A stretch of DNA of 64,000 nucleotides from a phage. Positions 11,089 to 63,861 of this stretch are shown here, one piece after another. Within the stretch, counting starts at the first letter, position 1. Each line of letters opens with the position of its first letter. The notes under the pieces were generated by a model. That model worked only from the letters and a program-made list of their open reading frames with translations, was not told the origin of the DNA and searched no databases. The position numbers were made by a program, and so were the translations under genes. Where the stretch lies: assembly GCA_024875585.1 (NCBI GenBank), contig GCA_024875585.1_4107.1; one strand, written 5' to 3'.

Positions 11089-11672
11089 TGCAAGTTGAAC
11101 ACATTCAAATTATGAAATTGATGCATGACATTGCGGAACTATCTGATAAGTACGATATTACTGTTCATGAGCCTATTGGAAATTATCGACTTAAAATTGA
11201 AAACAAATCACCACATCGTTTTGGTTCTGTAACTCTTGAATATTATAAAGTTTACGGTTATGAAACGGCAAAAAAAGGTTTCTGGGATACTATGGCAATG
11301 TATATCCGTACATCAAGACGTAGAGAACAAATCGGTTCAATCACGCCACATATGATATTTGTCAATGCTGTACACAGTGATATTAATCGAATTGTTGAAT
11401 CTAATTTTGGTGACGTTGAGAACGATACATATTTAGAAATTCCACCAGAACTAGATCAATGTGAAGACATTCGTGAAGCATACATTTTCCAGAGATCATT
11501 ACTTGACAACTTCAATGAGTTTGAGTACTTGATGCTTTGCTATGAAACTGCAAAAGCTATTAAGACTGGGGAATTGGTAATGTATAATAATTTCATTAAC
11601 TGCAAATCCGATACACTTAAAGAGTTACACACTGCCATAAAAAACATCAAGGATACATATGAACGCTTATAG
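11088..11672 (+). CDS. family-A-like protein (EAYIFQRSLLDN)
   Basis: 194-aa ORF. Confidence 0.6.
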   Translation: MQVEHIQIMKLMHDIAELSDKYDITVHEPIGNYRLKIENKSPHRFGSVTLEYYKVYGYETAKKGFWDTMAMYIRTSRRREQIGSITPHMIFVNAVHSDINRIVESNFGDVENDTYLEIPPELDQCEDIREAYIFQRSLLDNFNEFEYLMLCYETAKAIKTGELVMYNNFINCKSDTLKELHTAIKNIKDTYERL

Positions 11673-12237
11673 TTACATGACAGAACGTCATCAGATATTA
11701 TATGATATCAGTACTAAAATGTTATCAATTGTTAGTAGTGCGAAAGAAATTGAAAAACAATACCTCATCCGTGATGTAGCAATTTCATCTAAATGTTGGT
11801 CCAATGAATATTACGATCATGGTATTCTTACTATTTCTGGGGCTAGAAATATTTGTATTGTAAAAAATAAGAAAAAATGCAATGAAGAGTGTGAGATTAG
11901 TTCTGATATCCAAATAAAGGATGATGGAAGCTTTTCTCATCATCCATTCCATATTAGTACTATTGGTGTTTTATATAATATTAAAGTACTATTCGGTGAT
12001 GAAGAGTATGTGTTAAAAGCTATCAATCCAGAATCAAGTACAGTTGAAGAAGAACTGTTCCAGATGAGCACGGTTATACCTGAAGAGGTTCTTAGTACTG
12101 TTATTTTTTGTAGTTTAATTTATCATGAATACAAAAAGAACCAGTTCGATTTCCACATGTTAGGAACGTACATCTTCAATAATTTGAGCGTAGATCGTTT
12201 AAAAGCATTAAATTCAGCGATGGATAAGGTTCTATAA
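11659..12237 (+). CDS. family-A protein (EEELFQMSTVI)
   Basis: 192-aa ORF. Confidence 0.6.
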   Translation: MNAYSYMTERHQILYDISTKMLSIVSSAKEIEKQYLIRDVAISSKCWSNEYYDHGILTISGARNICIVKNKKKCNEECEISSDIQIKDDGSFSHHPFHISTIGVLYNIKVLFGDEEYVLKAINPESSTVEEELFQMSTVIPEEVLSTVIFCSLIYHEYKKNQFDFHMLGTYIFNNLSVDRLKALNSAMDKVL

Positions 12238-54657: not shown

Positions 54658-54688
54658 TTATCCCTGTCAATTGGCAGGGATTTTTTTC
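54658..54688 (+). terminator. rho-independent terminator
   Basis: hairpin tccctg-tcaattgg-caggga then TTTTTTT. Confidence 0.75.
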
Positions 54689-54783
54689 TATCTCTATCTT
54701 GACAAAAGGTTTAAAACATGAGAACATACATTAAAGGTAGAATGACATTCCATTAGGTTATTTTTAACTTAAAGGAGATATAT

Positions 54784-55341
54784 ATGTTTTTTGACCAAAC
54801 ATTTACGTTGTATCACGATTCTGGTAAAGTTGAGATTATTGATAATCTGCTACTGTACATTTCTGAGCATGAAGGGATAGACCGTTTTCATAGTAAGATG
54901 AAATTCGATTTAGCTGAATTCAACAAAAAGAATCGTGAAACTTTTTGGAAGAACCGATTCTATTATGAAATGTTCCCAGAAAGGTTTGTTGGTTATTATC
55001 TTTGTACTGAGAAAGGTTTATTAGTATCTCCAGATTTACTTATGGGTGAATACATGGTTCTCTATAATGAGTACTGGAAAAATAAACGTAACGCTCGTGA
55101 CATTGAATGGAGACACAAGCGTTCGTACATGTACAAACACAACCACTCCCGATACAAACGTCCTAAGACTCAACAAGAGCGTCGTATGGCGTGTGCGGTA
55201 TTGAAGGATGAGGGGGAACCTGATATACGTGGTAAGCGTAAAATGCGTTCAATACCTTCATACTGGGATGATATCAGAACAAGACACAGTACTGGCTGGA
55301 AATACAGTACTAAGCGTAAAAAACAATACAAAGGGAGCTAA
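54784..55341 (+). CDS. hypothetical protein with basic C-terminus
   Basis: 185-aa ORF with AAAGGAG RBS. Confidence 0.55.
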   Translation: MFFDQTFTLYHDSGKVEIIDNLLLYISEHEGIDRFHSKMKFDLAEFNKKNRETFWKNRFYYEMFPERFVGYYLCTEKGLLVSPDLLMGEYMVLYNEYWKNKRNARDIEWRHKRSYMYKHNHSRYKRPKTQQERRMACAVLKDEGEPDIRGKRKMRSIPSYWDDIRTRHSTGWKYSTKRKKQYKGS

Positions 55342-56545: not shown

Positions 56546-57517
56546 ATGAAAACTAAAATTATTTCTGAACAAAAAATCGGCAATACTACAGTACTGAATC
56601 TTGAAGTTCAAGATCTTAGTAATGTTCGTTCTCTTACTGTTTGTACTCAGAGAGATGATTTGACTGATTTTTATAGCTCCGAATACATGTCAGAAGAACA
56701 TTGGGATATGGGATGGTTAGACGGTAGTAGTTATATCAGTTCTCGTTATAGTTTTGGTTCTCATGAAAATATTGAACAAGTAAAAAATGAGTATATTAAA
56801 CTCAGTGATACTATTGAAATGAAAGAAGAAGATTGTGTAGAACTTTTCATTTTTGAATTCGATGCAGGAAATGGTAATTCATTACTAGTAAGTAATATTG
56901 AAGAACATTTAATGTATCATGATATTGAAGATGTAGATTTTAAAAGTATTAAAAATGTTGTTCATATGGTTGGTGGTAGTATTACTGATGATTCAGATAT
57001 CGGTCATAATATTTCACTGTGCTTAATTTCTCATCCAAAAACTCGTGGTTTTAAAGTTCCACAAGATGAAACTTACGTGTTTGAAACTGCTGATGAAGGA
57101 ATTTATCCTTGGAATGATTATGTAGAATACTATGGTCATTTCTGTTCTGATATAAAAGAACTGAAAAAAGGCGAACGATATTTTGATATGTTCCGTGCTG
57201 CACAGCGTTTAGTACTGAATAATACTGAACTATTTCCTGATCGCGGTGAAGAAAATATGATTGATATTATCTTCAAGAACTATGATTATGTGCAGAACAT
57301 TCCTGATAATGTACATTTGGAATATGTTCACGGTTCTTCAAACAAATTCTATAATATTGAATTGAATGCTCCAGTGTGTGAAGTAATCATTGAGTACGGT
57401 GCTATTGGTAAAACCAGTACTACCGATGGTGAAGAATTCGAAACTATTGAAGAAGCACGTAAGTTCTTCGAGAAGAAAGTAATTTCCAAAATTAAAAGTG
57501 GTTATATCCCAAAATGA
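56546..57517 (+). CDS. hypothetical acidic protein (323 aa)
   Basis: long ORF. Confidence 0.55.
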   Translation: MKTKIISEQKIGNTTVLNLEVQDLSNVRSLTVCTQRDDLTDFYSSEYMSEEHWDMGWLDGSSYISSRYSFGSHENIEQVKNEYIKLSDTIEMKEEDCVELFIFEFDAGNGNSLLVSNIEEHLMYHDIEDVDFKSIKNVVHMVGGSITDDSDIGHNISLCLISHPKTRGFKVPQDETYVFETADEGIYPWNDYVEYYGHFCSDIKELKKGERYFDMFRAAQRLVLNNTELFPDRGEENMIDIIFKNYDYVQNIPDNVHLEYVHGSSNKFYNIELNAPVCEVIIEYGAIGKTSTTDGEEFETIEEARKFFEKKVISKIKSGYIPK

Positions 57518-57527
57518 GAAAAATATC

Positions 57528-57761
57528 ATGAAAAATATATTCATTACATTAACAATATTTGTATCCATTATTCTCTGTGGTTGTGCTCCTAAAGTTGATG
57601 AGATGGATGCTGAAATCATCCGTCAAGGTTTAACAAAACTAAATCACCAAGGAACACTATACGCATGTCATACTATGCGTCATGGGCAAGATCTTAATCT
57701 CATGTGCAGGAAGATTGTGAACCGCAAACGTCTTAATACTATTCCGAAGGATGCACAATGA
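57528..57761 (+). CDS. small secreted protein or lipoprotein
   Basis: N-terminal hydrophobic segment ending ILCGC. Confidence 0.4.
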   Translation: MKNIFITLTIFVSIILCGCAPKVDEMDAEIIRQGLTKLNHQGTLYACHTMRHGQDLNLMCRKIVNRKRLNTIPKDAQ

Positions 57762-57928
57762 AAGAAGTAATTGGCTACAAATGTAAAAATTGTGGCAAAG
57801 ATATGGGTAAGCATTCAGTACAAGGTATGGCTTGTCCAAATCCAGGACGTGGTAATTTTAGAGGGTTCAGTACTGAAAAGTCTTATGAACCTGATTATTC
57901 AAAACCAGTGATGGGCTATAAGTTATGA
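57758..57928 (+). CDS. small Cys-containing protein (56 aa, CKNC...CPNP)
   Basis: ORF below track cutoff; ATGA overlap with the next gene. Confidence 0.35.
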   Translation: MKEVIGYKCKNCGKDMGKHSVQGMACPNPGRGNFRGFSTEKSYEPDYSKPVMGYKL

Positions 57929-58284
57929 GTGATTATGTGGCATTTGTTCATCGATTTGGTGAAGCTAAAGAAAAACATATTATTCGTATGCCCGTATATG
58001 GTGAAAAAGACTGGCACAAAAGCACTATCAGTGTAGGTGCATTTCGTGACCGTGAAGCTGAATTCTTTCTTGGTAAGCAACATGAACGCGAGGTACTTTG
58101 CTCACTTTGGCGTTTAGATGAATGGGATAGTGAAAATTCCAGAACGGCTGAATCAATGATGGCTATTGTTGGTATTGCGAACTATCAGCACCCATATGAT
58201 CTATTACCTACATTTGAACATGCTTCTTTGTTTGACTTTTACAAAGCAGTAGGGTATGATTATAAAAAGAAACGTTACATTTAA
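57925..58284 (+). CDS. hypothetical protein
   Basis: 119-aa ORF. Confidence 0.55.
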   Translation: MSDYVAFVHRFGEAKEKHIIRMPVYGEKDWHKSTISVGAFRDREAEFFLGKQHEREVLCSLWRLDEWDSENSRTAESMMAIVGIANYQHPYDLLPTFEHASLFDFYKAVGYDYKKKRYI

Positions 58285-58312
58285 TAACAGCACCTTTTAA
58301 ATTGGAGAAATC

Positions 58313-58927
58313 ATGACTACATCTGAAAAGTACTGGTGGATTTTGGGCCATCCTAAATTCATCAACGGAGATATGGTTCCCCCAAGGATTGATATCGAAC
58401 CACATGATGTGTGTCCAATCACAAACCGCATTGAATCATTTAAAGCTCTGAATACAAAGACACAATTTTGGGTAGAATTCATCTCACCTATGTACGTTGA
58501 GCAAGATGATGAATGGGTACAAGCACATGATTATGAGTTAGATTGCGGTGGTGATACTTATGATGAGGCAATTGACGCACTATACAAAAATGTGCTAAAC
58601 ACTTATGGTGATTACACCCAACAAGAAGCAGACGATACGTTTAATAAGATCCATGCAGCCATTTCTACATCATCAATTTACAATCCAGCAAAAACAGTTT
58701 GGGAAGAACGTCACGGGTGGAGTTCATCTGTAATTGATGCAGAAGCCAAAGAAACAATTCTCGAAGACATAAAAAATATAAAAAGTACAATAGAAGCCTT
58801 GCGTGAATTTATAAAGTCTTGTACAATAGAACAACAGAAAGAGGCAAAGATGCATTTGGAAAGTGAAGAATGTAAACTTTGGGTTCTAGAGAAATCTATT
58901 GAAAAGGGTATAGACTTAGACTTATGA
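58313..58927 (+). CDS. hypothetical protein
   Basis: 204-aa ORF. Confidence 0.55.
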   Translation: MTTSEKYWWILGHPKFINGDMVPPRIDIEPHDVCPITNRIESFKALNTKTQFWVEFISPMYVEQDDEWVQAHDYELDCGGDTYDEAIDALYKNVLNTYGDYTQQEADDTFNKIHAAISTSSIYNPAKTVWEERHGWSSSVIDAEAKETILEDIKNIKSTIEALREFIKSCTIEQQKEAKMHLESEECKLWVLEKSIEKGIDLDL

Positions 58928-59292
58928 ATAGTAAATTGGAGAAATTAATCGAAGAATTACGCCAGATGCCACCGATTGAACAAGTAGGTAATTATAAACG
59001 GTATCGTATTATTGCTCGTGCACTTGATAAAAAAGGTCGAGTACTGGCAACTCGCACCAATTCTTATACACAGACTCACCCTAAGCAGAAAAACTTTGCA
59101 GTTAAAGCTGGAAGAAATGATGCAATATGGTTACATGCTGAAATAAGCTGTTTACTCGCAGCAAGGGCTGATGTTCACACATTATTAATTGCACGGGTTA
59201 GTAAAGATGGAATTCCCGTTTCTGCAAAACCATGTGAAATTTGCTCTTTAGCAATACAAGAATACGGAGTAGTTGAAGTAATACATACATAG
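58924..59292 (+). CDS. CDA-fold zinc deaminase (short)
   Basis: HAE (HAEISCL) and PCxxC (PCEICSL) zinc-binding motifs; 122 aa. Confidence 0.55.
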   Translation: MNSKLEKLIEELRQMPPIEQVGNYKRYRIIARALDKKGRVLATRTNSYTQTHPKQKNFAVKAGRNDAIWLHAEISCLLAARADVHTLLIARVSKDGIPVSAKPCEICSLAIQEYGVVEVIHT

Positions 59293-59305
59293 GTAGAATA
59301 TTTTC

Positions 59306-59596
59306 ATGGAAGAAATAAAAAAAGAATTAAATCAATTTAATGAATACGTATATAATTTGTATTTTAATAAAAATATTATTTTTACTTGGATGAAACCTGA
59401 AGATATAAAGTATATAAAAACATCATCATCAAGTAAATCTCCATTTTACTTTGAAAAATTAATACTCAATAAATCATTTTCAAATTATCATTTTGAATTT
59501 CTTGGTTTTAATATAAAAAAATCAGATGATTGGATAGGAAAGCTTACAAATATAGTAATTAAGTTGAATGATATAATATATATATACGTAACATAA
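59306..59596 (+). CDS. hypothetical protein (very AT-rich)
   Basis: 96-aa ORF. Confidence 0.45.
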   Translation: MEEIKKELNQFNEYVYNLYFNKNIIFTWMKPEDIKYIKTSSSSKSPFYFEKLILNKSFSNYHFEFLGFNIKKSDDWIGKLTNIVIKLNDIIYIYVT

Positions 59597-59610
59597 AATC
59601 TTTTTTGGAG

Positions 59611-60384
59611 ATGCCTGTGACTCTCAAGCGTGTCCCATATGTGATTCATAATTCTAATAATATTAGTTACTATTTAAACAAATACAATAAAAATTTAAAA
59701 TATATAAATTGTATGTATGATAAAATCAATGAAAAAACTTATTTAGATTTACAATGTAAAATATGTGGTTATGAATATAAATCATGTTTAAACAATATTA
59801 AACATAGAAATACAGATTGTCCTGGTTGTATGAATAATGTTGTATTATCTGAAGATGATATGTTATATAGAATAACATTGAAATTATATACACAGCCACA
59901 TATAAAATTATTAAATTTCAACTATAATAACGGTGGTAATAAGAATGCAATAGGTACATATTATTGTGAAATACACAATTATACATGGGATTCTATGTAT
60001 TTTGGGACAATTGCAAAAGATCAAAGTTGTAAACTTTGTATGCAAGGTCAATCTAAAGGTGAAAAATATATCACTGAAATATTGGATAATTTAAAGGTAA
60101 ATTATATAAGAGAATATAAATTTGATAAATGTTTTAATCAAAGAAAATTACCTTTTGATTTTTATATTCCAGATTTCAATTTATGTATAGAATATGATGG
60201 AAGACAACATTTTGAATCTGTGGATTTTTATGGTGGAAACGATGCTTTTTTTATAAGAAAAAAGAATGATGAAATAAAAAATTCATTCTGTGAAAATAAT
60301 AATATTACATTATTAAGATTTAATGATCTCAATTTTTCTCGTATTGAATCAACATTGAATAGAATACTAAAAAGTGTTAAATAA
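59611..60384 (+). CDS. putative freestanding endonuclease (zinc-finger N-terminus, Vsr/DUF559-like C-terminal domain)
   Basis: several CxxC pairs; C-terminal FDFYIP..CIEYDGRQHF...RFN pattern; very AT-rich. Confidence 0.45.
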   Translation: MPVTLKRVPYVIHNSNNISYYLNKYNKNLKYINCMYDKINEKTYLDLQCKICGYEYKSCLNNIKHRNTDCPGCMNNVVLSEDDMLYRITLKLYTQPHIKLLNFNYNNGGNKNAIGTYYCEIHNYTWDSMYFGTIAKDQSCKLCMQGQSKGEKYITEILDNLKVNYIREYKFDKCFNQRKLPFDFYIPDFNLCIEYDGRQHFESVDFYGGNDAFFIRKKNDEIKNSFCENNNITLLRFNDLNFSRIESTLNRILKSVK

Positions 60385-60606
60385 ATGAAAATTGAACGCT
60401 ACCAAAACCATACAGTTGTGGCTGAAGATGATATATTTTATTATTATATTTTCAGACCCACACACTGTTTACAAATAACGACATTTGAGAATGATAATTT
60501 CAAAGATGTCAACTTCCATATAACAGATTTAGCTAAATATTCCAGTACTGAACACTTTAGTAATCTAGTATTTGTGTACTGTATTCCAAACTCAAATAAT
60601 AAGTAG
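60385..60606 (+). CDS. hypothetical small protein
   Basis: 73-aa ORF. Confidence 0.45.
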   Translation: MKIERYQNHTVVAEDDIFYYYIFRPTHCLQITTFENDNFKDVNFHITDLAKYSSTEHFSNLVFVYCIPNSNNK

Positions 60607-60616
60607 GAGATTAAAA

Positions 60617-60976
60617 ATGGCTAAAACAATTTCTTTAAAAAATGAAAAGGTAGGACAACGAAAAGATGGCTTCTATGGTTTTTCTTGGACCACATTATTT
60701 TTTGGACCTTTCCCTGCATTGTTCCGTGGTGACTTTATTACGTTTATCGGTGCATTTGTAATTTACTTCATCCTAAACGCAGTGTCTTTTTGGATTGTAG
60801 GTTCTATTGCCATGATCGTATGGGCATTTCTTTATAATAAGTACTACACAGTGAATCTCATCAAGAATGGGTATAAATTCAATGGTACACATGAAGAAAA
60901 TGCTGAAGCTGCAATGGCTTTGCAAATTGATTTGAATAAAAACAACACAGTTGATAAAAATAAAGATCCTGAGTAA
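60617..60976 (+). CDS. membrane protein (2 TM)
   Basis: ORF; ATG 60617 after AGGAG; hydrophobic helices. Confidence 0.55.
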   Translation: MAKTISLKNEKVGQRKDGFYGFSWTTLFFGPFPALFRGDFITFIGAFVIYFILNAVSFWIVGSIAMIVWAFLYNKYYTVNLIKNGYKFNGTHEENAEAAMALQIDLNKNNTVDKNKDPE

Positions 60977-61195
60977 ATGGAAAAATACGATATAATTTAC
61001 GATTATTATGGTAAGGCTTATATGAAGTGTGGGCGTTATGTTGAACTATCTAATAGAGATTCAATAGATCCTCACACTATTATAACAATTCACAACTCTT
61101 ACTATAAAAAAGTTACAATAGCTAATTTTGCAACATACGTAAATAATCCTTTATTTCCTTACATTATTCAGTACTACTGTCGAGTTATAAAATAA
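60977..61195 (+). CDS. hypothetical small protein
   Basis: 72-aa ORF. Confidence 0.45.
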   Translation: MEKYDIIYDYYGKAYMKCGRYVELSNRDSIDPHTIITIHNSYYKKVTIANFATYVNNPLFPYIIQYYCRVIK

Positions 61196-61206
61196 GGTAA
61201 AAAGAC

Positions 61207-61617
61207 ATGTTAGCCGATGATTTTATGTCTCTAAGTACCAAAATATTTGATATATTAGGAGATGAAATCGATTTTCATCTAAATGATGCAACTATACCGT
61301 TAGAAGATGGTGGTTATTTTTTCGCAATTGGTTATAAGTACAATGTTGATTTTTCAATTCCGATTCCTGATGGAAGTGATTACACATCATCAACATATTT
61401 TGAATTTCAGTTCAGAGGACACAAAGAGCGTTTACTAACATATAGACGTAAAGGTAATTTCAGTAGACCAGAGATTATATTAATGGATATTGAAAAACGC
61501 ATAGAAATTGCAAAGAATAATCCATTCTTCAGTTCTTATGCATTAAACCAACTTATTGAACTATTTGATGGCTATCCAGACAGAATACGAGGGTCGTTAC
61601 GTATAAATGCAGAATGA
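61207..61617 (+). CDS. hypothetical protein
   Basis: 136-aa ORF. Confidence 0.55.
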   Translation: MLADDFMSLSTKIFDILGDEIDFHLNDATIPLEDGGYFFAIGYKYNVDFSIPIPDGSDYTSSTYFEFQFRGHKERLLTYRRKGNFSRPEIILMDIEKRIEIAKNNPFFSSYALNQLIELFDGYPDRIRGSLRINAE

Positions 61618-61792
61618 AATCTTTAAAAAAGAATACGATGGTGAAAGCCTTTATGATATTCAGAGAGATGTTCATGAAGCCTTTGATTCAAAATTTAACC
61701 CATTAGCTGAACAAATCCCACAAGATGAATTTGGTTTTCAGGAAGGCACTTTCACAGTGACTATTACATGGAGTCCAGATGAGACTAGCTAA
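61607..61792 (+). CDS. hypothetical small protein
   Basis: 61-aa ORF. Confidence 0.45.
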   Translation: MQNEIFKKEYDGESLYDIQRDVHEAFDSKFNPLAEQIPQDEFGFQEGTFTVTITWSPDETS

Positions 61793-61894
61793 ACTTGTCA
61801 TAGGGTGTAGTGCAATTGCTGCATATATGATTTTTTCACCTCCAACCAATGTATTACTGCTAATTTGGGCGGTTGTTATATTAGCAGTACTTTA

Positions 61895-61918
61895 AAAGCA
61901 CCTTAGTGGTGCTTTTTA
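61895..61918 (+). terminator. rho-independent terminator
   Basis: hairpin agcacc-ttagt-ggtgct then TTTT. Confidence 0.65.
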
Positions 61919-61952
61919 TATTTGTGCAAATAAAAACCAATGTGACTTTTCC

Positions 61953-61966
61953 TTGATATATATCAA
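61953..61966. promoter_or_regulatory. FNR-type binding site TTGAT-N4-ATCAA
   Basis: perfect TTGATATATATCAA palindrome centred about 41.5 bp upstream of the predicted nrdD transcription start. Confidence 0.6.
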
Positions 61967-61988
61967 GAGAAATAGCCTGTTCTGACGC

Positions 61989-61994
61989 TATAAT
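61989..61994 (+). promoter_or_regulatory. -10 hexamer TATAAT of the nrdD promoter
   Basis: TATAAT with no good -35, as expected for a class II activator-dependent promoter. Confidence 0.5.
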
Positions 61995-62058
61995 ATTGTC
62001 TGGTGATATTAAATATCTTCACCCCCAGATGATTTCAAAATACAAGGAATGTACAATG

Positions 62059-63861
62059 CAGCTAGATAAATTATATAATGACGTAACGAATTTCCTAAAT
62101 CAGAGTAATACAGATCTCACAAATGAAAATGCGAACAAAGATGCGAAGTGCGTCAATACACACAGGGATTTACTTGCAGGTATCCTATCTAAACATTATT
62201 CACAAGATGTTATCCCAAATGAACTAATGCAGTGGCATAATGATGGTTATGGACATATTCATGATTTAGACTACTACATCAGCCCATTAACCAACTGTTG
62301 CTTAGTCAACTACCCAGATATGCTAAAAAATGGATTTACTATTGGCTGTGCTAAAATTGAAGAACCAAAAAGTTTTAGTGTTGCATGTACAGTACTAACA
62401 CAGATTGTACAAGCTGTAGCTAGTTCACAATACGGAGGACAATCGTTGGCTCACATTGATGTCGGGTTGGAACCTTACGTTAAAAAGTCATGGGATAAAC
62501 TATTAGAAAAACAAAAGAAATATAATCTAAGTGATGAGTACATTGAAGAAGAATTACGAAAAGAAGTATACGATGGATGTCAAACATTACTTTATCAAAC
62601 TAATTCAATGATTAGTACTAATGGTCAAGCTGCATTTATTTCTCTTAGTTTAGGTTTGAATACTTCCAAATTTGGTAAATTAATCACCGAACAGTACTTA
62701 AAAGTTCATGAGAATGGTTTAGGTAAAGATAAGATTACTCCAGTGTTTCCTAAAGTGATTTTCTTTTTACAAGATGGTATAAACATGAATACCAATGATT
62801 GTAATTATGACCTTAAACAGTTAGCTATGCGTTGTGCATCAAAGCGAATCTACCCAGACTTTGTTTCAGTTCCATTAAATCACAAAGTGACGGGAAGTAG
62901 TAGTACTGCTGTAACACCGATGGGCTGTCGTTCATTCTTAGGAAAATGGGAAGATTCAAATGGAAATGAACAATATAACGGTCGCTTCAATTTAGGTGTA
63001 GTTTCTATCAATTTACCACTAATTGCTCTTGAAAGTGCTACAGATGGAGAGTTTTTTGATAAGATAGATGAGCATATGAATATTGCATATCGTGCTCAGA
63101 TGAACCGCGTCGAGCGTTTAAAAGGTACAAAAGCGAAACAGAATCCAATTTTGTTTATGGAAGGTGCATTAGCACGTTTAGATGCAGAAGAGACTATTGA
63201 CAAGCTATTTTACAATGGTTATGCTAGTATTAGTATTGGTTATGTTGGACTTGTTGAATGTTCGGAAATCCTCACTGGTTCTATCAGTAAGGAGTTTTGT
63301 ATGTCAGTACTGAATTATATGAAAGTAAAATGCGATGAGTTTAAAAAAGAAAGTAATATTGCTTTTAGTTTATATGGAACTCCAGCAGAGTCACTTTGTT
63401 ATAAATTTGCACGTTGCATTGAAGCAAAGTATCCGTCTGTTCTAAAACGTAATTATATTACAAATTCATTCCATCAACCAGTATGGGTTGAAAGTTCTGC
63501 TTTTGAAAAGTGGGATTATGAGGAAAACTTTGCTTATCTAAGCAATGGTGGTAATATTAGCTATGTCGAAACACCAAACTTAACAAACAACATTCAAGCA
63601 CTTGAAACATTAATCAATTATGCCTATAAAAAAATTCCATATTTTGGAATAAACCAGCCTATAGATCATTGTCATAAATGTAATTTTGAAGGTGAATTCA
63701 GCGTCGATAAAAACGGTTTCCACTGTCCAGTTTGTAATAATAGAGATGAAAAATCTATGTCAGTTATTCGAAGAGTTAGCGGATATCTTAGTGCACCAAA
63801 TAGTCGCCCATTCAATAAAGGAAAGCAAGATGAAGTGATTCAGAGAATTCGCCATTTATAA
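62059..63861 (+). CDS. nrdD: anaerobic ribonucleoside-triphosphate reductase (class III RNR)
   Basis: C-terminal glycyl-radical motif RRVSGYLS and Cys-rich CHKCNFEGEF...CPVCN zinc site; N-terminal NENANKD region; start set at ATG 62059 with AAGGAA RBS (track start 61996 rejected). Confidence 0.9.
   Translation, partial: QLDKLYNDVTNFLNQSNTDLTNENANKDAKCVNTHRDLLAGILSKHYSQDVIPNELMQWHNDGYGHIHDLDYYISPLTNCCLVNYPDMLKNGFTIGCAKIEEPKSFSVACTVLTQIVQAVASSQYGGQSLAHIDVGLEPYVKKSWDKLLEKQKKYNLSDEYIEEELRKEVYDGCQTLLYQTNSMISTNGQAAFISLSLGLNTSKFGKLITEQYLKVHENGLGKDKITPVFPKVIFFLQDGINMNTNDCNYDLKQLAMRCASKRIYPDFVSVPLNHKVTGSSSTAVTPMGCRSFLGKWEDSNGNEQYNGRFNLGVVSINLPLIALESATDGEFFDKIDEHMNIAYRAQMNRVERLKGTKAKQNPILFMEGALARLDAEETIDKLFYNGYASISIGYVGLVECSEILTGSISKEFCMSVLNYMKVKCDEFKKESNIAFSLYGTPAESLCYKFARCIEAKYPSVLKRNYITNSFHQPVWVESSAFEKWDYEENFAYLSNGGNISYVETPNLTNNIQALETLINYAYKKIPYFGINQPIDHCHKCNFEGEFSVDKNGFHCPVCNNRDEKSMSVIRRVSGYLSAPNSRPFNKGKQDEVIQRIRHL

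What the first reader, a model, noticed from the sequence alone, without database searches (positions are those of the whole stretch)
59306..60384. Very AT-rich cassette encoding a zinc-finger / Vsr-like endonuclease candidate
ORF 59611-60384 pairs several CxxC zinc-finger pairs with a C-terminal FDFYIP...CIEYDG..HF...RFN pattern reminiscent of PD-(D/E)xK (Vsr/DUF559-like) endonucleases. It and the preceding ORF are markedly more AT-rich than their flanks, as expected of a freestanding homing-endonuclease insertion.
Basis: partly seen in the sequence, partly recalled or inferred. Interest (0 to 1): 0.45.

Follow-up and report, generated by a model that had tools for sequence, protein, structure and literature searches.

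The report
Frameshifted free-standing Vsr-like homing endonuclease gene
A selfish 1.1-kb gene for a zinc-finger, Vsr-like DNA-cutting enzyme sits between two genes of a giant E. coli phage; it is missing from every sequenced relative and broken here by a two-base slip, which makes it an ordinary though neatly documented homing endonuclease.

Summary
Window 59293-60384 (1092 bp) has GC 0.216 against 0.329 for the rest, the lowest in the window (z = -4.4).

The window comes from an Asteriusvirus, a jumbo E. coli phage of the 121Q/PBECO4 group. The cassette lies exactly between the stop codon of a dCMP-deaminase-like gene and the ATG of a 73-aa ORF. All 36 relatives in the phage collection lack it.

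Four other assemblies carry an intact 358-362-aa ORF at the same site. The window has one extra TA in an (AT)n run at 59576-59586, which splits the gene into 96-aa and 255-aa pieces.

The intact protein has:
- an orphan N-terminal region;
- two homologous zinc-ribbon modules of the CapR/DUF4379/DUF723 type;

A 2025 paper described this architecture as a large outgroup of the EDxHD/Vsr homing endonucleases.

The nearly identical gene, with about 65 bp of divergent left flank, sits in at least three different backbones, which fits homing. Cleavage activity and the target site are untested.

Verdict: a new member of a known kind, of modest interest.

The parts
58924..59292 (+). Left flanking host gene: dCMP/cytidine-deaminase-like (122 aa). 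In genomes without the insert its TGA stop overlaps the next gene's ATG (ACATGA). Here it ends in TAG.
   Evidence: Pfam PF00383 E 2e-5 and phrog_174 E 1e-12. Junction alignment with UE-S1, TH47, ph0011, 121Q, PBECO4 and EC.P1.
59228..59292 (+). Divergent tract of about 65 bp linked to the insert, at the 3' end of the deaminase-like gene. It is a co-conversion or target-immunity tract and the inferred location of, or neighbour to, the cleavage target.
   Evidence: There are 20 mismatches in 63 nt against TH47, although the ~900 nt upstream is 93-100% identical to TH47 in 60-nt bins. Only 4 amino-acid changes result. The tract is identical in the other carriers L002, L024 and L025.
59293..60384 (+). 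Inserted cassette (1092 bp, GC 0.216) holding one free-standing homing endonuclease gene. It supplies the TAG stop for the upstream gene and ends directly before the ATG of the downstream gene.
   Evidence: Absent from all 36 related records. Boundaries. Composition.
59306..59596 (+). 5' fragment of the endonuclease gene: codons 1-93 of the intact 358-codon ORF, then 3 out-of-frame codons and TAA. NCBI EJR1979328.1.
   Evidence: Identical to residues 1-93 of P0001. dN/dS is 0.185 against P0002 over codons 1-100.
59576..59586 (+). (AT)5A run carrying the +2 frameshift. The intact alleles have (AT)4A.
   Evidence: Window versus L002, L024 and L025: a 2-nt gap at 59576-59577 is the only indel in the gene.
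59617..60384 (+). 3' fragment of the endonuclease gene. The frame is open from 59572. A possible restart lies at GTG 59617, 7 nt after GGAG 59606-59609. The 255-aa product is NCBI EJR1979329.1.
59755..59829 (+). Zinc-ribbon module 1 (C150, C153, C171, C174 of the intact protein), CapR/DUF4379/DUF723-like. Inferred to bind DNA.
   Evidence: Cysteine map. Near-invariant cysteines in 45 homologues. Module 1 versus module 2 by hhalign: probability 99.3%, E 5e-20. Of the 45 homologues, 37 hit DUF4379 and 26 hit CapR.
59965..60039 (+). Zinc-ribbon module 2 (C220, H223, C241, C244).
60049..60381 (+). Vsr-like / EDxHD-like PD-(D/E)xK nuclease domain (residues 248-358). Conserved residues: E252, D284 (60157-60159), E295 (60190-60192), D297, H301 (60208-60210), D321 (60268-60270), K324 (60277-60279).
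60385..60606 (+). Right flanking host gene (73-aa ORF of unknown function), present in all relatives. The haplotype linked to the insert ends 13-36 nt into it.

Best explanation
The cassette is a free-standing homing endonuclease gene in an Asteriusvirus (jumbo E. coli phage) genome.

The intact gene encodes a 358-aa protein with three parts:
- an orphan N-terminal region of about 110 aa;
- two tandem zinc-ribbon modules of the CapR/DUF4379/DUF723 type, inferred to bind DNA;
- a C-terminal Vsr-like (EDxHD-type) PD-(D/E)xK nuclease domain.

Inferred mechanism. When a phage carrying the gene and one lacking it infect the same cell, the enzyme cuts the allele that lacks it. The cut is at or near the junction between the deaminase-like gene and the 73-aa ORF. 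Double-strand-break repair then copies the gene, together with about 65 bp of left flank and 13-36 bp of right flank, into the cut genome. The carrier allele is protected because the insertion splits the junction and the adjacent 65 bp is heavily substituted.

In this particular genome the gene is split by a +2 slip in an (AT)n run, so this copy is probably inactive or truncated. That is either an early step of the usual decay of such genes or an assembly error.

Shown: the insertion and its exact site, the polymorphism, the composition, the single-gene structure and frameshift, the domain architecture and fold, purifying selection on the intact ORF, and the same allele in different backbones. 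Inferred: DNA cleavage, the target location, the homing process, and the effect of the frameshift.
For: Insertion and polymorphism:
- The cassette lies precisely between the stop and start codons of two genes that overlap (ATGA) in relatives.
- It is absent from all 36 Asteriusvirus records.
- It is present at the same site in L002, L024, L025 (99-100% aa identity) and in the diverged L003/L004 (70% aa).
- GC is 0.216, z = -4.4.

Single gene:
- The intact 358-aa P0001 equals ORF1 plus ORF2 once one TA is removed.
- dN/dS is 0.22 overall and 0.185 for the N-terminal 100 codons.

Family and fold:
- PHROG 559 E 2e-40; phrog_9084 'homing endonuclease' E 1e-28.
- D284, E295, H301, D321 and K324 are invariant, and E252 and D297 near-invariant, in 45 homologues.
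- The D-to-H spacing is 17 residues, the same as D196-H213 in I-Bth0305I (PMC3239194).
- The two zinc modules are homologous repeats.
- Related zinc fingers (CapR, DUF723) are described as the inferred DNA-binding modules of phage homing endonucleases (PMC10448857).
- The same architecture is described as an outgroup of the EDxHD/Vsr homing endonucleases (PMC12350094).

Spread between backbones:
- Within the cassette the window differs from L024 and L025 by 3-4 substitutions plus the TA indel in 1092 nt. Neighbouring segments differ by up to 37 positions per 200 nt.
- Identity breaks 13-36 nt after the gene's stop codon in both comparisons.
- The 63 nt to the left differ at 20 positions from the otherwise 93-100% identical TH47 backbone.

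Other sites:
- Paralogues occupy different intergenic sites in TH47 and UE-S1.
Against: - No enzymatic evidence exists for this protein or for any close relative.
- The cleavage site is unknown.
- The copy in the window is frameshifted.
- A sequence-profile search of the PDB with the nuclease-domain alignment did not retrieve I-Bth0305I or Vsr at E <= 10. The link to them rests on the predicted fold, weak Pfam hits and the motif pattern.
- Only two zinc modules were detected, whereas the 2025 description gives three to five.
- The N-terminal ~110 aa has no detectable relatives or confident fold.
- The promoter scan found no more promoter-like sites than in shuffled sequence.
- Mosaic recombination is common in these phages and could by itself place a shared segment in different backbones.
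Confidence: 0.85

Rival explanations
1. The frameshift is a sequencing or assembly artefact. The real phage carries the intact 358-codon gene, so this copy is a fully functional homing endonuclease gene.
For: All three indels between the window and the 99.8% identical contig L002 lie in simple repeats: a T run at about 54681-54687, an (AT)n run at about 54778-54783, and the (AT)n run at 59576-59586. Such repeats are where assembly errors concentrate. Three near-identical alleles from other assemblies are intact.
Against: Simple repeats are also where real replication slippage occurs. The two genomes are distinct isolates with 18 substitutions over 10.7 kb. The two other indels are intergenic. 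NCBI annotated the two pieces as separate proteins. Reads were not available.
Confidence: 0.3
2. The frameshift is real but does not inactivate the gene. A 255-aa product restarted at GTG 59617 (GGAG 7 nt upstream) keeps both zinc modules and the nuclease domain. It works as a truncated endonuclease, perhaps with altered specificity or regulation.
For: GGAG at 59606-59609 lies 7 nt before GTG 59617. NCBI's pipeline called this start. All recognisable domains lie downstream of the break.
Against: The N-terminal 100 codons are under purifying selection in the intact alleles (dN/dS 0.185), so that region matters for the normal protein. The GGAG and GTG also exist inside the intact ORF, where they encode LEMPV, so nothing shows they evolved as a restart site. 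No expression data exist.
Confidence: 0.2
3. The gene is not, or is no longer, a selfish homing element. It is a domesticated Vsr-like nuclease that serves the phage, for example in excluding competing phages, countering host defence or satellites, or DNA repair.
For: Domains from phage homing endonucleases have been co-opted repeatedly (CapR and Odn in the ICP1/PLE system, PMC10448857). The fold is shared with the repair enzyme Vsr. The intact alleles are under purifying selection.
Against: - The distribution is patchy: 0 of 36 sequenced relatives carry it.
- The composition is extremely AT-rich.
- Diverged alleles sit at the same insertion point.
- The gene is lost by frameshift here.
- Paralogues sit at other intergenic sites.

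All of these are typical of selfish elements and not of a conserved useful gene. The protein has no Vsr Pfam match.
Confidence: 0.07
4. The two ORFs are expressed as one protein by programmed -1/+2 recoding or by transcriptional slippage on the (AT)n run. That would make the run an on/off or dosage switch.
For: The frames overlap only over 59572-59596, which contains the repeat.
Against: ORF1 contains no X XXY YYZ slippery heptamer before its stop. Polymerase slippage is known for homopolymers, not for (TA)n (own knowledge). Intact relatives simply have one TA fewer.
Confidence: 0.02

Closest known systems
[quoted passage not shown]
   Same: Same architecture: tandem ~60-aa modules distantly related to Pfam CapR, DUF4379 and DUF723, followed by a ~100-aa C-terminal Vsr/EDxHD-like nuclease domain. 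Found in phages and mostly annotated as hypothetical.
   Different: The published examples sit inside group I or group II introns and have three to five modules. This one is free-standing between two genes, has two detectable modules plus an orphan ~110-aa N-terminus, and is frameshifted. I did not compare sequences directly with the published examples.
I-Bth0305I, founder of the EDxHD homing endonuclease family (PDB 3R3P; PMC3239194); per that paper the family also includes the Hef-type homing endonucleases of bacteriophages
   Different: I-Bth0305I binds DNA through N-terminal NUMOD/helix-turn-helix motifs, not zinc ribbons. It is encoded in a recA group I intron. No sequence-level match was obtained, even with a profile. 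The dimeric cleavage of a 14-bp pseudopalindrome leaving 2-nt 5' overhangs is untested here.
E. coli Vsr very-short-patch repair endonuclease (PDB 1CW0/1VSR) and DUF559/NGO0050-like proteins (PDB 3HRL)
   Different: Vsr nicks at T:G mismatches for repair and is a single-domain chromosomal enzyme. Here the domain is fused to zinc-ribbon modules and sits in a mobile, polymorphic cassette. The DUF559 score (15.9 bits) is below Pfam's cut-off (20.6).
T4-type free-standing homing endonucleases (Seg, GIY-YIG; Mob, HNH) and 'intronless homing' (PMC2988022)
   Same: Same lifestyle: an intergenic cassette between conserved genes, no promoter signal above background, AT-rich, with patchy distribution. 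Flanking sequence is co-converted. Family copies occur in a nucleotide-metabolism neighbourhood: this one follows a deaminase-like gene upstream of nrdD, and TH47's paralogue lies next to nrdG.
   Different: The catalytic fold is different: Vsr-like PD-(D/E)xK rather than GIY-YIG or HNH. The host is a jumbo phage unrelated to T4.
T5orf172 (GIY-YIG-related) homing endonucleases of ICP1 and other phages with CapR/DUF723 zinc-finger DNA-binding repeats (PMC10448857)
   Same: The same class of repeated zinc-finger modules, thought to bind DNA. The gene lies at boundaries of sequence exchange between related phages.
   Different: The nuclease domain is T5orf172, not Vsr-like.

Membership tests
CapR-like + EDxHD/Vsr-like HEG outgroup (PMC12350094) | Several (three to five) tandem ~60-aa domains distantly related to Pfam CapR/DUF4379/DUF723 | tested here: met
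   Two modules (C150/C153/C171/C174 and C220/H223/C241/C244) are mutually homologous by hhalign (probability 99.3%). The query alone scores sub-threshold on DUF4379 (E 0.018) and CapR (E 0.028). Of its 45 homologues, 37 hit DUF4379, 26 CapR and 16 DUF723. Only two modules were detected, not three to five. The N-terminal region could not be shown to be a third module (probability about 1%).
CapR-like + EDxHD/Vsr-like HEG outgroup (PMC12350094) | C-terminal ~100-aa domain distantly related to the EDxHD/Vsr endonuclease domain | tested here: met
EDxHD homing endonuclease family sensu I-Bth0305I (PMC3239194) | Composite catalytic motif E-D-x-H-D | tested here: inconclusive
   E252 is near-invariant; D284, H301 and D321 are invariant; E295 or D297 occupies the 'x' region. 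The D-to-H spacing of 17 equals D196-H213. A residue-by-residue structural superposition could not be obtained from the tools.
EDxHD homing endonuclease family sensu I-Bth0305I (PMC3239194) | Detectable sequence homology to family members or Vsr | tested here: not met
   A profile of 25 nuclease domains searched against all PDB sequences at E <= 10 returned neither 3R3P nor Vsr. The only related hit was the Vsr-like domain of AbaSI at E 0.22. The single-sequence search also found nothing.
EDxHD homing endonuclease family sensu I-Bth0305I (PMC3239194) | N-terminal NUMOD / helix-turn-helix DNA-binding region | tested here: not met
   No NUMOD or HTH Pfam hit. The region upstream of the nuclease domain consists of zinc ribbons.
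Free-standing homing endonuclease gene (functional class) | Presence/absence polymorphism at one precise site among related genomes, with flanking genes kept intact | tested here: met
   Absent in 36 of 36 related records. Present at the same junction in L002, L024, L025 and L004. The upstream gene's stop and the downstream gene's start are both preserved.
Free-standing homing endonuclease gene (functional class) | Co-conversion of flanking sequence; the same allele in different backbones | tested here: met
   There are 20 mismatches in 63 nt next to the gene against the otherwise 93-100% identical TH47. Within the cassette the window differs from L024/L025 by 3-4 substitutions plus the TA indel in 1092 nt, against up to 37 differences per 200 nt in neighbouring segments. 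Identity breaks 13-36 nt past the stop codon.
Free-standing homing endonuclease gene (functional class) | Site-specific cleavage of the allele lacking the gene, and super-Mendelian inheritance in crosses | not testable with these tools
   Needs enzyme assays and phage crosses.
HNH endonuclease (the label given to this family by PHROG 559 and RefSeq) | HNH / beta-beta-alpha-metal catalytic motif | tested here: not met
Pfam DUF559 (PF04480) / Vsr (mismatch repair) | Score above the Pfam gathering threshold | tested here: not met
   DUF559 scores 15.9 bits against a cut-off of 20.6 (E 0.012). There is no Vsr family hit. Three of 45 homologues reach E <= 0.01 on DUF559 and six on DUF2726.

The most novel reading that the evidence does not exclude
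The (AT)n run inside the gene might be a slippage-prone switch that turns the endonuclease off and on within phage populations. Alternatively it might yield a truncated 255-aa nuclease that lacks the orphan N-terminal domain and has a different role. Either would limit self-damage while keeping the element recoverable. In that reading the orphan N-terminal ~110 aa is a new regulatory or DNA-binding module specific to this lineage.
Probability: 0.06. Interest if true: 0.5.

Novelty: new member of a known kind. Interest (0 to 1): 0.3.

Why it matters
This endonuclease family is very large. A profile of 45 full-length homologues found 86,170 cluster representatives at E <= 1e-3 and 25,715 at E <= 1e-30. 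That profile includes the zinc-ribbon modules, so some hits may share only those modules.

The family is mostly labelled 'hypothetical' or, wrongly, 'HNH endonuclease'. In the papers I read, none of its zinc-ribbon members has been characterised biochemically.

This locus is a convenient natural test case:
- an intact allele (P0001);
- a natural frameshift allele (this window);
- a diverged allele at the same site (P0002);
- 36 sequenced phages with the empty site;
- a 65-bp tract that probably marks the target or immunity region.

Together these would allow direct mapping of the recognition site and homing crosses in an E. coli system.

For annotation, the two NCBI proteins EJR1979328.1 and EJR1979329.1 should be merged as one disrupted homing endonuclease gene. 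Otherwise this is an ordinary selfish element and changes no concept.

Tried and rejected
1. Sequence searches of the PDB. The single protein gave nothing relevant. The full-length profile gave only DUF4379 zinc ribbons of mitoribosomal proteins. The nuclease-domain profile gave only a weak AbaSI hit. The link to Vsr and I-Bth0305I therefore rests on the predicted structure.
2. NCBIfam: no hit.
3. Homologue search with the N-terminal 137 aa: nothing found, not even P0001, which contains that sequence. I treat this as a tool limitation, not as evidence.
4. hhalign of the N-terminal region against the zinc modules: probability about 1%. The idea that it is a degenerate cysteine-free third repeat is therefore unsupported.
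5. Rfam on the window and L002: no group I or group II intron or any other RNA family, so the gene is free-standing rather than intron-borne.
6. Promoter and terminator scan: 15 promoter-like sites against 15.9 expected. The one terminator-like site is on the opposite strand, inside the deaminase-like gene, upstream of the cassette.
7. Palindromic target at the empty site: TTCATACATGAA is a perfect 5+5 palindrome only in TH47. Such palindromes occur 1.4 times per 100 nt in the background, so this is not evidence.
8. IMG/VR scan: only distant relatives (33-45% identity), with no further copies of this allele.
9. Programmed frameshifting: no slippery heptamer in the 59572-59596 overlap.
10. Second copies in the window: a profile search of all six-frame ORFs found only this one.
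11. Supplementary files of the I-Bth0305I paper are not held. I therefore could not run a direct profile-to-sequence comparison.

Full report

Yes.

The second ORF contains CKIC...CPGC and CEIH...CKLC, followed by LPFDFYIP...CIEYDGRQHF...LLRFN.

The AT-richness is strong. The segment 59293-60384 has GC 0.216. All other 1092-bp windows of the 64-kb sequence have mean 0.3285, sd 0.0255 and minimum 0.270, so z = -4.4. The flanks are 0.364 and 0.310.

**2. Genomic context and the insertion**

The window is from an Asteriusvirus, a jumbo E. coli myovirus of the 121Q/PBECO4 group. A megablast of 57500-62500 found 36 records: 32 Escherichia and 4 Salmonella phages. Most of these genomes are about 350 kb long. 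The best match is UE-S1 at 95%.

In the 33 records that span the site, the match is split in two and the record interval is about 1.09 kb shorter than the query. No record of the collection matches the first 1088 nt of 59293-60620, apart from 67-71% matches to paralogues in unrelated phages.

The junction alignment shows the following.
- In relatives, the stop of a dCMP-deaminase-like gene overlaps the start of the next small ORF (...ACATGAAAAAAATTGAACGC).
- In the window, the deaminase-like gene (58924-59292) ends in TAG.
- The 1092-bp cassette follows.
- The 73-aa ORF starts directly after the cassette's TAA, at 60385.

Both neighbouring genes stay intact.

**3. One gene, not two**

The homologue search returned P0001, which is 100% identical over the second ORF but 358 aa long. 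It also returned P0002, at 69% identity and 362 aa.

P0001 reads ...KLNDIIYIRNIKSFLEMPVTL..., which is ORF1 joined to ORF2. Its contig (L002, ERR13936577) is 99.8% identical to the window over 10.7 kb. Inside the cassette it differs only by two synonymous substitutions and a 2-nt gap at 59576-59577. The window has (AT)5A and L002 has (AT)4A.

Exact-sequence look-up gave these results.
- The window's two pieces are in NCBI as EJR1979328.1 (96 aa) and EJR1979329.1 (255 aa, starting at GTG 59617). They lie on a 348,506-bp contig labelled Escherichia coli.
- Two further assemblies carry intact 358-aa alleles: P0272 (EMR6007922.1) and P0273.

Both intact alleles lie at the same site and have (AT)4A.

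Between P0001 and P0002, dN/dS is 0.22 overall and 0.185 for the first 100 codons. The full 358-codon ORF is therefore the selected unit, and the window's allele is a derived disruption.

I cannot tell whether the disruption is a real mutation or an assembly error. All three indels between the window and L002 lie in simple repeats. That is where both slippage mutations and assembly errors occur.

**4. What the protein is**

*Profile matches.* PHROG profiles match strongly: phrog_559 at E 2e-40 and phrog_9084 'homing endonuclease' at E 1e-28. Pfam gives only sub-threshold hits: DUF559 0.012, DUF4379 0.018, DUF2726 0.024, CapR 0.028. NCBIfam gives nothing.

*Conservation.* An alignment of 45 homologues shows invariant D284, E295, H301, D321 and K324. 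It also shows near-invariant E252 and D297 and near-invariant cysteine pairs. Of the 45 members, 37 hit DUF4379, 26 CapR and 16 DUF723. A few hit DUF2726, DUF559 or the PvuRts1I N-terminal domain; I recognise these three as Vsr-like nuclease families (own knowledge).

Other PD-(D/E)xK nucleases follow. Foldseek agrees, with probability 1.00 for 3r3p and 1cw0.

*Active-site pattern.* The conserved residues fit the composite E-D-x-H-D motif of I-Bth0305I. The D-to-H spacing is the same: 17 residues, D196 to H213 (PMC3239194).

*Zinc modules and N-terminus.* The two zinc modules (C150/C153/C171/C174 and C220/H223/C241/C244) are homologous repeats by hhalign, with probability 99.3%. The N-terminal ~110 aa has no detectable relatives.

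*The 'HNH' label.* No HNH motif or Pfam HNH hit is present, so the 'HNH endonuclease' label in PHROG and RefSeq is a misnomer for this protein.

**5. Evidence of mobility**

- The window's backbone is TH47-like: 93-100% identical in 60-nt bins on both sides. The last 63 nt before the cassette, however, differ from TH47 at 20 positions, and only four amino acids change.
- This 65-bp tract is identical in L002, L024 and L025.
- Within the cassette, L024 and L025 differ from the window by 3-4 substitutions plus the TA indel in 1092 nt. Neighbouring segments differ by 7-29 positions per 200 nt, and by 23-37 in the bin just after the gene. In both comparisons identity breaks 13-36 nt after the stop codon.
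- A diverged allele (70% aa) occupies the same junction in a more distant relative (L004).
- Paralogues sit at other intergenic sites in sister phages. TH47 has a 328-aa copy between a DUF4326 gene and nrdG; that site is empty in L002. UE-S1 has UES1_575 upstream of an exonuclease X gene.

This is the pattern described for free-standing homing endonucleases in T4-like phages (PMC2988022) and for nuclease genes at exchange boundaries (PMC10448857).

**6. Mechanism (inferred)**

In a mixed infection, the enzyme cuts the allele that lacks the gene. The cut falls at or near the junction between the deaminase-like gene and the 73-aa ORF. Recombinational repair then copies the cassette and the adjacent ~65 bp.

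The carrier allele is immune because the junction is split and the adjacent tract is substituted.

Cleavage chemistry is expected to follow Vsr and I-Bth0305I: a metal bound by D284, with H301 as general base. The zinc ribbons would supply DNA binding. None of this has been measured.

**7. Comparison with what is known**

The closest description is in a 2025 paper on group II introns in phages (PMC12350094). It reports three to five CapR/DUF4379/DUF723-like domains followed by a ~100-aa EDxHD/Vsr-like domain. [quoted passage not shown]

The present gene fits that kind, with three differences:
- it is free-standing rather than intron-borne;
- it has two detectable zinc modules;
- it has an orphan N-terminus.

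It is not a member of the EDxHD family in the narrow sense. It has no sequence-level match and no NUMOD or helix-turn-helix region.

The family is huge. A full-length profile found 86,170 cluster representatives at E <= 1e-3, and 395 phage records match the nuclease domain at E <= 1e-8.

**8. Verdict**

The one correction is that the cassette holds a single gene, frameshifted in this genome. It is a new member of a recently recognised kind. The locus would make a good experimental entry point into the family, but it is not conceptually new.

Noticed in passing
whole window; NCBI proteins EJR1979328.1 and EJR1979329.1 (59306-59596, 59617-60384): The window comes from a 348,506-bp contig deposited as 'Escherichia coli' (locus tags N0S44_...). 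It is in fact a near-complete Asteriusvirus (jumbo phage) genome inside a bacterial assembly. The disrupted endonuclease gene is annotated there as two hypothetical proteins, not as a pseudogene.
   Followed up: partly
L023 1847-2833 (phage TH47); the equivalent site in L002 is 11090-11873: TH47 carries a 328-aa paralogue of the same endonuclease family (three zinc modules plus a Vsr-like domain). It lies between a DUF4326 gene and nrdG, about 4 kb downstream of the studied site. That site is empty in the window's sister contig. The family therefore occupies different intergenic sites in different Asteriusviruses.
   Followed up: partly
L022 2096-2815 (phage UE-S1, UES1_575): Another paralogue (52% identity over the nuclease domain), annotated as hypothetical. 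It lies between annotated terminators, upstream of an exodeoxyribonuclease X gene.
   Followed up: no
L002 10731-11090 and L023 1161-1520 (starts about 37 nt beyond the window's end): A stand-alone 119-aa ORF with a glycyl-radical domain (motif RVSGYAVRF) follows nrdD, which has its own RVSGY motif. It resembles the GrcA/YfiD 'spare part' glycyl-radical proteins (own knowledge). It might rescue oxygen-damaged anaerobic ribonucleotide reductase.
   Followed up: no
window about 54681-54687 and about 54778-54783: The two other indels between the window and the 99.8% identical contig L002 are also in simple repeats. One is T7 versus T6 after a terminator-like hairpin. The other is an (AT)n run between a GGAG and the ATG at 54784, which changes the Shine-Dalgarno spacing from 8 to 6 nt.
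   Followed up: partly
60385-60606: The 73-aa ORF downstream of the cassette is unusually variable among otherwise similar genomes: 23-37 differences within 60406-60605 between the window and L024/L025, and 65-83% identity to PBECO4 and 121Q. Its function is unknown and it has no family hits.
   Followed up: no
L003 about 1190-1299: The 3' end of the Logan contig DRR173101_7201 switches to GC-rich sequence unrelated to the phage right after the endonuclease gene. The sister contig L004 continues into the expected downstream ORF. L003 is probably a chimeric assembly.
   Followed up: no
56546-57517: A 323-aa protein with a C-terminal WGR domain is encoded a few genes upstream (annotated as such in UE-S1). 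In L024 this region is replaced by unalignable sequence.
   Followed up: no
tool behaviour: The homologue search with the first 137 residues of the intact protein returned no hit at all. P0001 and P0002, which contain or closely match that sequence, are in the same database. The negative result for the N-terminal region is therefore unreliable.
   Followed up: no
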